From positions 1 through 16,314 of the IMG/VR virus record IMGVR_UViG_2547132273_000004: a stretch of DNA of 16,314 nucleotides; one strand, given 5' to 3'. Shown here one piece after another: positions 6,555-8,836 of the stretch. The notes below the pieces were generated by a model. It was not told the origin of the DNA and searched no databases. It was given only the letters and a program-made list of their open reading frames with translations. The stretch's first letter is position 1. Each line of letters starts with the position of its first letter. The position numbers and the translations under genes are program-made. The DNA is from a virus (lineage: Duplodnaviria > Heunggongvirae > Uroviricota > Caudoviricetes).

Positions 6555-6683
6555 AATAACCAAAGTGAACTTTGGGGTGAATGCAGAAGCTAACCTTCTC
6601 GGCGGAGGCGCTTTGCAATGATTACGCGACCGGAGTTAGTCGCCCGGCTGTATTCACCGCTAAAGTTCATCAGGAGGTTCCAT

Positions 6684-7067
6684 ATGACACGCAGAACTCA
6701 GTTCAAAGGCAATTCTCGTTCTCGTCGTCGTGAGCGTTTAAAGGCAAAGGCATTAGCTAACGGCGTACTGGCCCGCGAAGAAGCAATAAGTTCAGAAGTA
6801 TTACACCGCCCAACTCTAAGTAGAGCGCAGATTCAGGCTAAAGGTACTCACGAAACGCCTGATCGCATAGAAGACGCTAAGCCAATTAAGTTCATGGCAC
6901 AGGACGTGATCTGGCAACAGAAAGAATACAGACGCAATCTGGAGCGAGCGGCCATTGTGTACGCGAATGAGTTTGGACATAAGCAACCAGAAACTGGTGT
7001 ATGTCTTCCAAACGTAGCCATTTACGCGGCAGGCTACCGGAAATCAAAACAACTGACGGCGAGGTGA
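6684..7067 (+). CDS. N: Antitermination protein N (127 aa; arginine-rich motif at N-terminus)
   Basis: Start chosen at ATG 6684 (AGGAGG at 6673-6678, 5-nt spacing) rather than track start 6618; N-terminal MTRRTQFKGNSRSRRRERLKAKA is an ARM like those of N proteins; lies between pL/nutL and the early leftward genes. Confidence 0.65.
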   Translation: MTRRTQFKGNSRSRRRERLKAKALANGVLAREEAISSEVLHRPTLSRAQIQAKGTHETPDRIEDAKPIKFMAQDVIWQQKEYRRNLERAAIVYANEFGHKQPETGVCLPNVAIYAAGYRKSKQLTAR

Positions 7068-7125
7068 CTTGTGTTGGTCGCCAGAAAATGAAATTAGGCA
7101 GCAAACCACTTATTTGAGGTGAGAT

Positions 7126-7596
7126 ATGACAAAATCATGGAGCGTACCTTTTCCTGAATCAGAAACTGAACATGATGGAATGCCTGTTTTCTGGAGATTC
7201 CAGGCGACAGTTGAAGAAGATGGGATAAAAATATTCGCACTTCAATATATAGCTTTTCATCAGACAGAGCATTATGCATGGTTGGTTCCTGCGCATTGGA
7301 TTGTTAATTTTAAACCAGCACCAAATCAGTGGTTACAGGAATGGAAACAAAGGAGAAATAGATATGCAATTAAGAAAGTAGCAAAAAATGCAGAAAGATC
7401 TTTTGCATTCCCAACGAAGAAACTTGCCATTGAAAGTTTATTGCGCCGGAAGAAATACCATTTAATGAGAATCAAACAAGATTTGGCTGTTGTATCAACT
7501 CTTGTTGATGGTATGAAGAATATTGATACATCAACACCAGATATTGAATATAACTTTGGACACAACCAAGAAACAGAAAATTGGGTATTTTATTAG
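7126..7596 (+). CDS. Hypothetical protein (156 aa), accessory gene in the ral/sieB slot
   Basis: Complete ORF with GAGGTGAGA RBS; AT-rich; no family recognised; basic central region (RRNRYAIKKVAKNAER...LLRRKKYHLMRIKQ). Confidence 0.5.
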   Translation: MTKSWSVPFPESETEHDGMPVFWRFQATVEEDGIKIFALQYIAFHQTEHYAWLVPAHWIVNFKPAPNQWLQEWKQRRNRYAIKKVAKNAERSFAFPTKKLAIESLLRRKKYHLMRIKQDLAVVSTLVDGMKNIDTSTPDIEYNFGHNQETENWVFY

Positions 7597-7610
7597 TACG
7601 AATAAGCACT

Positions 7611-7638
7611 GTGTATTCATTCCAACGAGTGAATACAC
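7611..7638 (+). other. Perfect 9-bp-stem hairpin (GTGTATTCA ... TGAATACAC)
   Basis: Inverted repeat with 10-nt loop directly after the 156-aa ORF; no U-tract, so an RNA processing or protein-binding site rather than a classic terminator. Confidence 0.4.
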
Positions 7639-7700
7639 GGAGCAATGTCGCTCGTAACTAAACAGGAGCCGACTTGTTCTGATTATTGGAAATCTTCTTT

Positions 7701-7727
7701 GCCCTCCAATGTGAGGGCGATTTTTTA
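7701..7727 (+). terminator. Rho-independent terminator (tL-type)
   Basis: GCCCTC-caatgt-GAGGGC followed by GATTTTTTAT. Confidence 0.65.
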
Positions 7728-7746
7728 TCTGTGAGGATATGAACAG

Positions 7747-8115
7747 ATGTCAAACATCAAAAAATACATCATTGATTACGACTGGAAAGCATCAATAGAA
7801 ATTGAAATCGACCATGACGTAATGACAGAGGAAAAACTTCACCAGATTAATAATTTCTGGTCAGACTCTGAATACCGACTCAATAAACACGGCTCTGTAT
7901 TAAATGCTGTATTAATCATGCTGGCGCAACATGCTCTGCTTATAGCAATTTCAAGCGACTTAAATGCATATGGTGTTGTGTGTGAGTTCGACTGGAATGA
8001 TGGAAATGGTCAGGAAGGATGGCCTTCAATGGATGGTAGCGAAGGAATAAGAATTACCGATATCGATACATCAGGAATATTTGATTCAGATGATATGACT
8101 ATCAAGGCCGCCTGA
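7747..8115 (+). CDS. ea10: Ea10-like early protein
   Basis: 122 aa; translation MSNIKKYIIDYDWKASIEIEIDHDVMTEEKLHQINNFWSDSEYRLNKHG... matches my recollection of lambda Ea10; position between N region and cIII agrees. Confidence 0.6.
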   Translation: MSNIKKYIIDYDWKASIEIEIDHDVMTEEKLHQINNFWSDSEYRLNKHGSVLNAVLIMLAQHALLIAISSDLNAYGVVCEFDWNDGNGQEGWPSMDGSEGIRITDIDTSGIFDSDDMTIKAA

Positions 8116-8187
8116 GTGCGGCTTTACCGCATACCAATAACGCTTCACTCGAGGCGTTTTTCGTTATGTATAAATAAGGAGCACACC

Positions 8188-8352
8188 ATGCAATATGCCA
8201 TTGCAGGGTGGCCTGTTGCTGGCTGCCCTTCCGAATCTTTACTTGAACGAATCACCCGTAAATTACGTGACGGATGGAAACGCCTTATCGACATACTTAA
8301 TCAGCCAGGAGTCCCAAAAAATGGATCAAACACTTATGGCTATCCAGACTAA
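8188..8352 (+). CDS. cIII: CIII (FtsH inhibitor, 54 aa)
   Basis: [54 protein letters not shown] equals remembered lambda CIII; internal start within track ORF 8116..8352. Confidence 0.85.
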   Translation: MQYAIAGWPVAGCPSESLLERITRKLRDGWKRLIDILNQPGVPKNGSNTYGYPD

Positions 8353-8539: not shown

Positions 8540-8836
8540 ATGAACGCTTATTACATTCAGGATCGTCTTGAGGCTCAGAGCTGGGCGCGTCACTACCAGC
8601 AGATCGCCCGTGAAGAGAAAGAGGCAGAACTGGCAGACGACATGGAAAAAGGCCTGCCCCAGCACCTGTTTGAATCGCTCTGCATCGATCATTTGCAACG
8701 TCACGGTGCCAGCAAAAAAGCCATTACCCGTGCGTTTGATGACGATGTTGAGTTTCAGGAGCGCATGGCAGAACACATCCGGTACATGGTTGAAACCATT
8801 GCTCACCACCAGGTTGATATTGATTCAGAGGTATAA
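8540..8836 (+). CDS. gam: Gam (RecBCD inhibitor; 98-aa short form)
   Basis: [60 protein letters not shown]... matches lambda Gam. Confidence 0.9.

What the first reader, a model, noticed from the sequence alone, without database searches (positions are those of the whole stretch)
7126..7596. Unknown 156-aa gene in the N-proximal accessory slot (ral/sieB position)
A complete ORF with a good RBS, AT-rich, between N and ea10, where lambda carries ral and sieB. I recognise no family. It is followed by a perfect 9-bp hairpin and a terminator, so it forms its own small unit. The basic central region (RRNRYAIKKVAKNAERSFAFPTKK...RRKKYHLMRIKQ) could bind nucleic acid. A superinfection-exclusion, anti-restriction or defence role is plausible from position alone.
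Basis: inference. Interest (0 to 1): 0.5.

Follow-up and report, generated by a model that had tools for sequence, protein, structure and literature searches.

The report
Uncharacterised early phage gene after N
A real, strongly conserved 156-residue gene sits just after the N antiterminator of a Shiga-toxin-type lambdoid phage, in the place where lambda carries ral/sieB; it belongs to a widespread phage protein family of unknown function with a predicted fold that matches no solved structure, and it is most likely a small basic binding protein made early in lytic growth.

Summary
The ORF at 7126-7596 (+) is real. It is ORF18 of Stx1 phage BP-4795, identical in many Stx1a/Stx2a phages, H-19B and BASEL phages Bas106/Huey, and present in 598 of 5,426 complete E. 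coli genomes, always as "hypothetical protein". It matches PHROG 1636 full-length and has no Pfam, NCBIfam, PADLOC or PDB-sequence match. dN/dS is 0.07-0.17.

The gene is a discrete mosaic cassette (~7095-7600), nearly always the first or second gene after N, and never together with ral or sieB (0 of 59 loci).

No promoter of its own was found, so lysogenic expression is unlikely.

Best guess (about 0.4): a non-enzymatic early protein that binds nucleic acid or an acidic host target, acting in host takeover or counter-defence. The function remains untested.

The parts
7095..7125 (+). 5' edge of the mobile cassette, including the ribosome-binding site (GAGGTGA, about 7115-7121)
   Evidence: GCAGCAAACCACTTATTT(G/A)AGGTGAGATATG is shared with phage Bas106, whose sequence further upstream is unrelated. 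In 80 loci carrying the identical ORF, upstream similarity to the window mostly breaks 0-60 nt before the ATG.
7126..7596 (+). Coding sequence of the 156-aa protein (BP-4795 ORF18; PHROG 1636)
   Evidence: ORF. PHROG 1636 at E 2.7e-112 over 1-156. 100% identical in Stx phages and BASEL phages. Annotated ORF18, CAD88820.1, in BP-4795. dN/dS 0.07-0.17. AlphaFold2 mean pLDDT 95.6.
7606..7643 (+). Stable hairpin in the conserved lambda-type segment upstream of ea10. It is the slot boundary and not part of the cassette.
   Evidence: Inverted repeat of 17 nt at 82%. 12-bp stem in an RNA fold with z = -5.5. Essentially identical to lambda's ral-ea10 spacer.
7699..7726 (+). Intrinsic terminator (8-bp GC-rich stem plus T-run). 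It is the first clear one after pL/N, and lambda has the same one downstream of ral.
   Evidence: Terminator scan of the window. The same element is at L002 2594-2615 in lambda. Alignment.
6618..7067 (+). Antiterminator N, the upstream gene in the same operon. The true start is probably M23 at 6684.
   Evidence: Pfam N_peptide 2.8e-15 covering residues 23-149, and PHROG 271. No terminator-like site lies between its stop codon and the ORF.
7747..8115 (+). ea10 (DUF2528), the downstream gene in this phage. The downstream gene varies in other carriers of the ORF.
   Evidence: Pfam DUF2528 2e-47. Lambda Ea10 annotated under the DNA match. The neighbour analysis shows ea10, cIII, GP17 and other genes following the ORF.
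6443..6554 (+). Probable pL promoter (6443-6471) and boxB-like nutL hairpin (GCGC-TGACAAA-GCGC, 6540-6554) that would drive the operon. This is inferred.
   Evidence: Promoter-like hit TTGCCA-17-TAAAGT. The hairpin was read from the sequence. Assigning these as pL and nutL is inference from lambda's gene order.

Best explanation
The ORF is a genuine accessory gene of the early-left (pL) operon of a BP-4795/H-19B-type lambdoid Stx phage. It is a self-contained mosaic cassette that takes the first slot after N, as an alternative to lambda's ral/sieB.

It is transcribed together with N from pL, so it is repressed in the lysogen and made at once on infection or induction. It encodes an 18.6-kDa non-enzymatic protein with three parts: a bent beta-sheet, a long helix carrying a conserved, strongly basic surface, and an acidic C-terminal tail.

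The most likely mode of action is stoichiometric binding through the basic surface to nucleic acid or to an acidic host protein. This would serve host takeover or counter-defence during lytic growth.

Shown: the gene is real, and its family, predicted fold, cassette structure, operon position and basic core are established.

Inferred: the timing of expression, the binding, and the biological role.
For: Real and constrained:
- 22 full-length homologues at 55-99% identity.
- dN/dS 0.07-0.17.
- Present in 598 of 5,426 complete E. coli genomes.

Family:
- PHROG 1636.
- A profile search finds 87 proteins at E<1e-3. All 68 that I aligned also hit PHROG 1636, and 58 hit PHROG 13631.

Fold:
- pLDDT 95.6, pTM 0.82 with the deep alignment.
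- No solved-structure match.
- Twelve uncharacterised phage proteins in BFVD match at E<1e-3.

Non-enzymatic:
- The conserved polar positions are mostly Lys/Arg.
- The superfamily's E46, H115 and R118 are Q, R and Q in the E. coli clade.

Basic core conserved:
- Net charge of residues 75-120 is median +10, minimum +5, in 68 members.
- 91% have pI above 8, and the tail is acidic.

Cassette:
- The identical ORF sits in many different flank contexts, with breakpoints at its ends.

Operon:
- It is the first or second gene after N in nearly all of about 80 loci.
- No + strand promoter and no terminator lie between N and the ORF. The first clear terminator is at 7699-7720.

Alternative to ral/sieB: 0 of 59 loci carry either.

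Distant relatives lie in early-left operons between the repressor and xis/int, several with a DNA methyltransferase 1-3 kb upstream.
Against: - No experiment or homology ties the family to any activity.
- A basic surface could equally bind an acidic protein.
- Position in a mosaic slot does not imply a shared function: ral and sieB share the slot and do different things.
- Rho-dependent termination or an unconventional promoter cannot be excluded by the consensus scans.
- The methyltransferase neighbourhood is seen in only about half of a handful of contexts and may simply reflect early-operon content.
Confidence: 0.4

Rival explanations
1. It is a functional analogue of Ral. As an early protein it would alleviate restriction, for example by modulating a Type I R-M enzyme or shielding unmodified phage DNA.
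For: It occupies the ral position. It never co-occurs with ral (0 of 59 loci). In some phages the order is N-ORF-gene 17, which from my recollection of the P22 map is where ral sits. It is co-transcribed with N ahead of the first terminator. DNA methyltransferases lie in the same operon in several distant relatives.
Against: There is no profile similarity to lambda Ral (hhalign probability 0.1). It is more than twice Ral's size, with a different predicted fold. sieB, which has an unrelated role, occupies the same slot. The protein was not found in the supplementary files held for the one accessory-gene screen I checked.
Confidence: 0.12
2. It is a phage-internal factor: a regulator or accessory of transcription, replication or recombination. 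For example it might bind RNA polymerase or Nus factors alongside N, or bind DNA in the Red/Erf recombination operon.
Confidence: 0.22
3. It is a lysogen-expressed superinfection-exclusion or anti-phage defence protein, as one of the first reader's readings proposed.
For: Lambda's sieB lies in the same slot. The gene is AT-rich and cassette-like, as many prophage defence morons are.
Against: There is no promoter of its own, and the terminator is not its own. It lies downstream of the CI-repressed pL. There is no PADLOC match beyond a spurious E = 0.018 hit. The lysogen-expressed slot next to cI in this phage already holds a PD-Lambda-2-like cassette. The wider family sits among early lytic-phase genes, and its structural relatives are in virulent phage families.
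Confidence: 0.08

Closest known systems
PHROG 1636, with the related PHROGs 13631 and 25384 (phage protein families of unknown function)
   Same: Full-length match at E 2.7e-112. All 68 aligned superfamily members hit PHROG 1636 and 58 hit PHROG 13631.
   Different: Nothing differs, since this is the family. It has no name, no Pfam model and no known function, so membership explains nothing mechanistically.
Lambda/P22 Ral (restriction alleviation protein)
   Same: Same genomic slot directly after N in the pL operon. The two are mutually exclusive. Both are small early proteins.
   Different: No sequence or profile similarity. 156 aa against 66 aa. The predicted beta-sheet plus long-helix architecture was not compared with a Ral structure.
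Lambda SieB (superinfection exclusion B)
   Same: An alternative occupant of the same slot.
   Different: SieB lies on the opposite strand to N in the lambda record used. tblastn with SieB found no match in any ORF-bearing locus. The ORF has no promoter-like site of its own.
Tudor/KOW/PipX-type SH3-like small beta-barrels
   Different: All scores are below the usual significance level. Foldseek finds nothing. The long basic helix and the conserved C-terminal tail have no counterpart in those domains.
orf184 of Silas et al. [quoted passage not shown]
   Same: The paper places orf184 in the same accessory region as ral.
   Different: It is a different protein: orf184 starts MEALVVERSEDGYWT. Our protein was not found in the supplementary files held for that paper.

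Membership tests
PHROG 1636 (uncharacterised phage family) | Significant full-length match to the family profile | tested here: met
   E 2.7e-112, residues 1-156 on profile positions 1-156 of 156.
Ral (restriction alleviation) | Sequence or profile similarity to lambda Ral | tested here: not met
   hhalign of the 68-sequence profile against lambda Ral: probability 0.1, 4 aligned columns.
Ral (restriction alleviation) | Alleviates Type I restriction or enhances modification when expressed | not testable with these tools
   Needs a plating assay of unmodified phage on EcoKI/EcoBI hosts.
SieB (superinfection exclusion) | Sequence similarity to SieB | tested here: not met
   tblastn with lambda SieB found no match in any of the 59 ORF-bearing loci.
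SieB (superinfection exclusion) | Expression from its own promoter in the lysogen | tested here: not met
   No + strand promoter-like site between N and the ORF. This is a consensus scan only, so the result is not decisive.
Known anti-phage defence proteins (PADLOC-DB) | Match to a defence-system protein model | tested here: not met
   The only hit is Cas1_II at E 0.018 and 12.4 bits over 45 residues, which I consider spurious.
Moron (autonomous promoter-gene-terminator unit) | Own promoter upstream and own terminator downstream that travel with the gene | tested here: not met
   No promoter found. The terminator and hairpin are lambda's ral-ea10 spacer and are absent after the identical ORF in Bas106.
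Tudor/KOW SH3-like barrel proteins | Significant structural superposition on a Tudor or KOW domain | tested here: inconclusive
AP2 / integrase arm-type DNA-binding domain (considered because of the RFAF-x-TKE-x-A strand-to-helix motif) | Structural or profile match to AP2-like three-strand-plus-helix domains | tested here: not met
Any Pfam, NCBIfam or PDB family | Significant sequence match | tested here: not met
   Pfam 0 families. NCBIfam 0. Best PDB sequence E-value 0.13 for the single sequence and 0.3 for the profile.

The most novel reading that the evidence does not exclude
The protein is the E. coli/Stx-phage representative of a structurally new, very widespread class of phage early proteins. 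By sequence the class reaches lambdoid, Pseudomonas, Pantoea, Vibrio and marine temperate phages. By predicted structure it may reach N4-like and Vi1-like virulent phages. On this reading the class neutralises a conserved host function, such as a nuclease-based immune system or a nucleic-acid transaction, through a basic barrel-plus-helix module. That would make it a new anti-defence or host-takeover family sitting in the classical ral slot of Shiga-toxin phages.
Probability: 0.2. Interest if true: 0.7.

Novelty: new member of a known kind. Interest (0 to 1): 0.38.

Why it matters
The gene is carried by about 11% of complete E. coli genomes and by many Shiga-toxin phages. It is placed to be made together with N on infection or induction. 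Yet it has no assigned function, no Pfam family and no structural relative among solved structures.

Its slot is a known reservoir of restriction-alleviation and exclusion functions. One other gene from the ral accessory region has been reported to trigger an abortive-infection system. This makes it a well-defined, cheap candidate for anti-defence and host-takeover screens, and a target for structure determination of what may be a new fold.

As it stands it is one of many uncharacterised phage accessory genes, and nothing here shows an unusual mechanism.

Tried and rejected
- **Known families.** Pfam, NCBIfam, PADLOC and PDB sequence searches with the single protein and with the 68-member profile gave nothing.
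- **First structure model.** With the shallow 22-sequence alignment it was poor (pLDDT 62). I replaced it with the deep-alignment model.
- **AP2/arm-type DNA-binding idea.** I raised it because of the RFAF-TKE-A motif. Fold and profile searches did not support it.
- **HET motif as a catalytic site.** Rejected because the E. coli clade has HQT, and Y/R replace H elsewhere.
- **Domain fusions.** The two long hits, P0059 and P0081, are repeat or low-complexity proteins and therefore spurious.
- **Hairpin plus terminator as a known sRNA.** No Rfam match. The Stx-phage anti-sRNAs of Tree et al. map to the pR' moron site (PMC4104026).
- **Literature.** Searches on BP-4795 ORF18, H-19B, PHROG ids and lambdoid hotspots found no functional study.
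- **orf184 of Silas et al.** It comes from the same accessory region but is a different protein, and ours was not found in the supplementary files held.
- **Sequence-level link to Ackermannviridae proteins.** hhalign did not confirm it, so the link is at the level of predicted structure only.
- **Locus searches.** The search for related loci with the wide alignment failed for lack of a conserved block. The viral-contig scan returned only identical E. coli alleles.

Full report
**1. The observation**

The window carries a lambdoid immunity and early-left region on the + strand:
- cI at 4030-4734
- a three-gene cassette at 4871-6212
- N at 6618-7067
- the ORF in question at 7126-7596
- ea10 at 7747-8115
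- then cIII, kil, gam, bet and exo.

DNA comparison shows the 1.6-kb query around the ORF (6600-8200) matches Stx1 phage BP-4795 along its full length at 99.4%. There the ORF is annotated "ORF18, hypothetical protein".

- The ORF has an ATG start and a GAGGTGA ribosome-binding site 5-6 nt upstream.
- It is AT-rich, 35.7% GC against 46.5% for the window.
- It has a basic centre: 17 K/R against 5 D/E in residues 56-130, pI 9.07.
- A hairpin at 7606-7643 and an intrinsic terminator at 7699-7720 lie downstream.

**2. It is a real gene**

- The exact protein occurs in many Stx1a and Stx2a converting phages, in H-19B (where it is unannotated), and in BASEL phages Bas106 and Huey.
- It is present in 598 of 5,426 complete E. 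coli genomes, with up to four copies per genome, always as "hypothetical protein" (names).
- Full-length homologues at 55-85% identity occur in Pectobacterium, Brenneria, Cronobacter, Rosenbergiella and metagenomes. They share 40 invariant positions.
- Pairwise dN/dS is 0.07-0.17 where it can be estimated, and synonymous sites are saturated in the other pairs.

**3. What belongs to it and what does not**

I compared about 80 loci that carry the identical ORF. Similarity to the window breaks 0-60 nt upstream of the ATG and mostly 0-150 nt after the stop. Bas106 shares only about 30 nt upstream, including the RBS, and nothing recognisable after the stop codon.

Window ~7601-7747, which holds the hairpin and the terminator, is essentially identical to lambda's spacer between ral and ea10. 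The same terminator is at L002 2594-2615 in lambda.

So the cassette is about 7095-7600. The hairpin and terminator are the conserved boundary of the slot, not a private terminator. No promoter-like site precedes the ORF on the + strand. No terminator-like site lies between N and the ORF either; the only other candidate is a weak 5-bp stem inside N. Lambda, by contrast, has a terminator-like hairpin about 100 nt after N.

The simplest reading is that the ORF is co-transcribed with N from pL. A probable promoter lies at 6443-6471 and a boxB-like hairpin at 6540-6554; assigning them as pL and nutL is inference. On this reading the gene is repressed in the lysogen and made immediately on infection or induction. 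Rho-dependent termination cannot be assessed with these tools.

**4. Position**

- In nearly all of the roughly 80 loci the ORF is the first gene after N, or the second after one small variable ORF. The gene that follows varies: ea10, cIII/kil, P22-type gene 17 (Pfam GP17, 1.2e-55) or others.
- None of 59 loci with enough flank carries ral or sieB. Lambda, DE3, PhiR57_1 and Sf6 share part of the query region, lack the ORF, and have ral and/or sieB annotated under the match. It is therefore an alternative cassette of the ral/sieB slot.
- In Brenneria and Pectobacterium prophages the 62-63% identical homologue is instead the last early-left gene before xis/int. N-adjacency is therefore not universal, although early-left operon membership is.

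**5. Family and fold**

- The protein matches PHROG 1636 (unknown function) end to end. It has no Pfam, NCBIfam, PADLOC or PDB-sequence match.
- A profile search of 1.84 billion representatives found 87 proteins at E<1e-3, mostly 130-160 aa and matching positions ~20-140. These correspond to PHROGs 13631 and 25384.
- They occur in Pseudomonas, Pantoea and Vibrio phages and in marine prophages.
- With the 68-sequence alignment AlphaFold2 gives pLDDT 95.6 and pTM 0.82. The elements are strands 19-30, 33-46 and 50-55, short helices, strand 83-86, a 33-residue helix at 98-130, and an ordered C-terminal tail. A shallower alignment gave only pLDDT 62.
- Foldseek against the PDB finds nothing (best E 0.69).
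- BFVD returns 12 matches at E<1e-3, all "uncharacterized" or unnamed. The named ones come from Erwinia, Tenacibaculum, Achromobacter, Sinorhizobium, Rhizobium and Delftia phages; a Cellulophaga phage follows just above that threshold.
- Three of those I looked up belong to Schitoviridae and Ackermannviridae. By established knowledge these are virulent families.
- For LIET2 gp064, which its record annotates as similar to the phiEa2809 protein, a profile-to-sequence comparison found no sequence similarity. That link is therefore structural only.

**6. Clues to mechanism**

- Conserved positions across the superfamily fall into two groups. One is hydrophobic core residues. The other is a set of polar residues dominated by Lys/Arg (R24, K75, K83/R84, K87, R91/92, K98, R108, K109, R118), plus E46-T47 and A101.
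- The superfamily's E46, H115 and R118 are Q, R and Q in the E. coli clade. This argues against a catalytic centre.
- Net charge of residues 75-120 is median +10 and never below +5 in 68 members. The C-terminal tail is acidic (median -3). 91% have pI above 8.
- No fusions to other domains exist; the two long hits are repeat artefacts.
- Distant relatives lie in early-left operons among small ORFs, between an S24 repressor and xis/int. Several have a DNA methyltransferase 1-3 kb upstream. In one Brenneria prophage the gene lies next to a DNA pol III theta homologue.

Together these point to a small, non-enzymatic binder of nucleic acid or of an acidic partner that acts early in lytic development. 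I put about 0.4 on that class of mechanism, covering host takeover or counter-defence. Within or beside it:
- about 0.12 on a specifically Ral-like restriction-alleviation role
- about 0.22 on a phage-internal transcription, replication or recombination accessory role
- about 0.08 on lysogen-expressed exclusion or defence.

**7. Literature**

I found no functional study of this protein.

The accessory-gene screen of Silas et al. (bioRxiv 10.1101/2023.04.06.535777) tested a gene, orf184, from the same accessory region as ral, and found that it triggers the gop-beta-cII abortive-infection system. Its deposited model starts MEALVVERSEDGYWT, so it is a different protein. Our protein was not found in the supplementary files held for that paper. 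The Stx-phage anti-sRNAs map elsewhere, at the pR' moron site (PMC4104026).

**8. Verdict**

The interpretation [quoted passage not shown] stands. The lysogenic exclusion or defence option is the least likely of the three roles offered.

The gene is a catalogued but uncharacterised family member. It is a new member of a known kind, the mosaic accessory cassette of the lambdoid early-left operon. Its predicted fold has no solved relative and its distribution is unusually wide. It is moderately interesting as a screening and structural target, and nothing yet indicates an unprecedented mechanism.

Noticed in passing
window 4871-6212 (+): Three overlapping ORFs sit between cI and pL, in lambda's rexAB position. 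The first is a HigB-like toxin (Pfam PF09907 4.5e-30; PADLOC PD-Lambda-2_A 2.5e-42). The second is a 218-aa HTH protein matching only positions 3-125 of the 402-position PD-Lambda-2_B profile (5e-50). The third is a 134-aa protein matching PD-T4-9_C (3e-11). A terminator follows at 6221-6240. This looks like a lysogen-expressed PD-Lambda-2-like defence or toxin-antitoxin cassette with a shortened B component and a different third gene.
   Followed up: partly
window 7606-7725 (+): The spacer upstream of ea10 folds far better than shuffled sequence (z = -5.5). It forms a 12-bp hairpin, a second hairpin and the terminator. It is essentially identical to lambda's ral-ea10 spacer, and it is where similarity resumes or breaks in many mosaic relatives. 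Apart from termination, its role (recombination boundary, RNA processing site or other) is unknown. It has no Rfam match.
   Followed up: partly
window 6618-6684 (+): The N ORF as listed begins at ATG 6618 (149 aa). The Pfam N_peptide match covers only residues 23-149, and the arginine-rich motif (MTRRTQFKGNSRSRRRERLKAK) begins at M23. The true start is probably 6684, giving 127 aa.
   Followed up: no
window 377-562 (-): Rfam matches above the gathering score to C4 antisense RNA (377-460, 66.7 bits) and the isrK Hfq-binding sRNA (486-562, 74.7 bits) lie at the left end of the window.
   Followed up: no
window 8175-8233 (+): The lambda cIII thermoregulator RNA element is present upstream of and into cIII (Rfam RF01804, 88.5 bits).
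   Followed up: no
window 8540-8836 (+): The gam ORF is 98 aa here and in the BP-4795 annotation. The lambda record annotates 138 aa. I did not examine whether a longer form is encoded.
   Followed up: no
L090 5684-5935 (Brenneria alni prophage): A DNA polymerase III theta-subunit homologue (Pfam DNA_pol3_theta 6.1e-33) lies directly upstream of the ORF's homologue, which is itself the last gene before the integrase.
   Followed up: no
L005 (Pantoea phage LIET2) 3977-4432 and 5818-6249: The phage carries a sequence-level relative of the family (gp069). Five genes downstream it carries gp064, which belongs to a group common in Ackermannviridae. A phiEa2809 protein, to which gp064's record says it is similar, matches our model by predicted structure (Foldseek E 1.7e-6). 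hhalign finds no sequence similarity between gp064 and the family. These may be very distant paralogues in one early region.
   Followed up: partly
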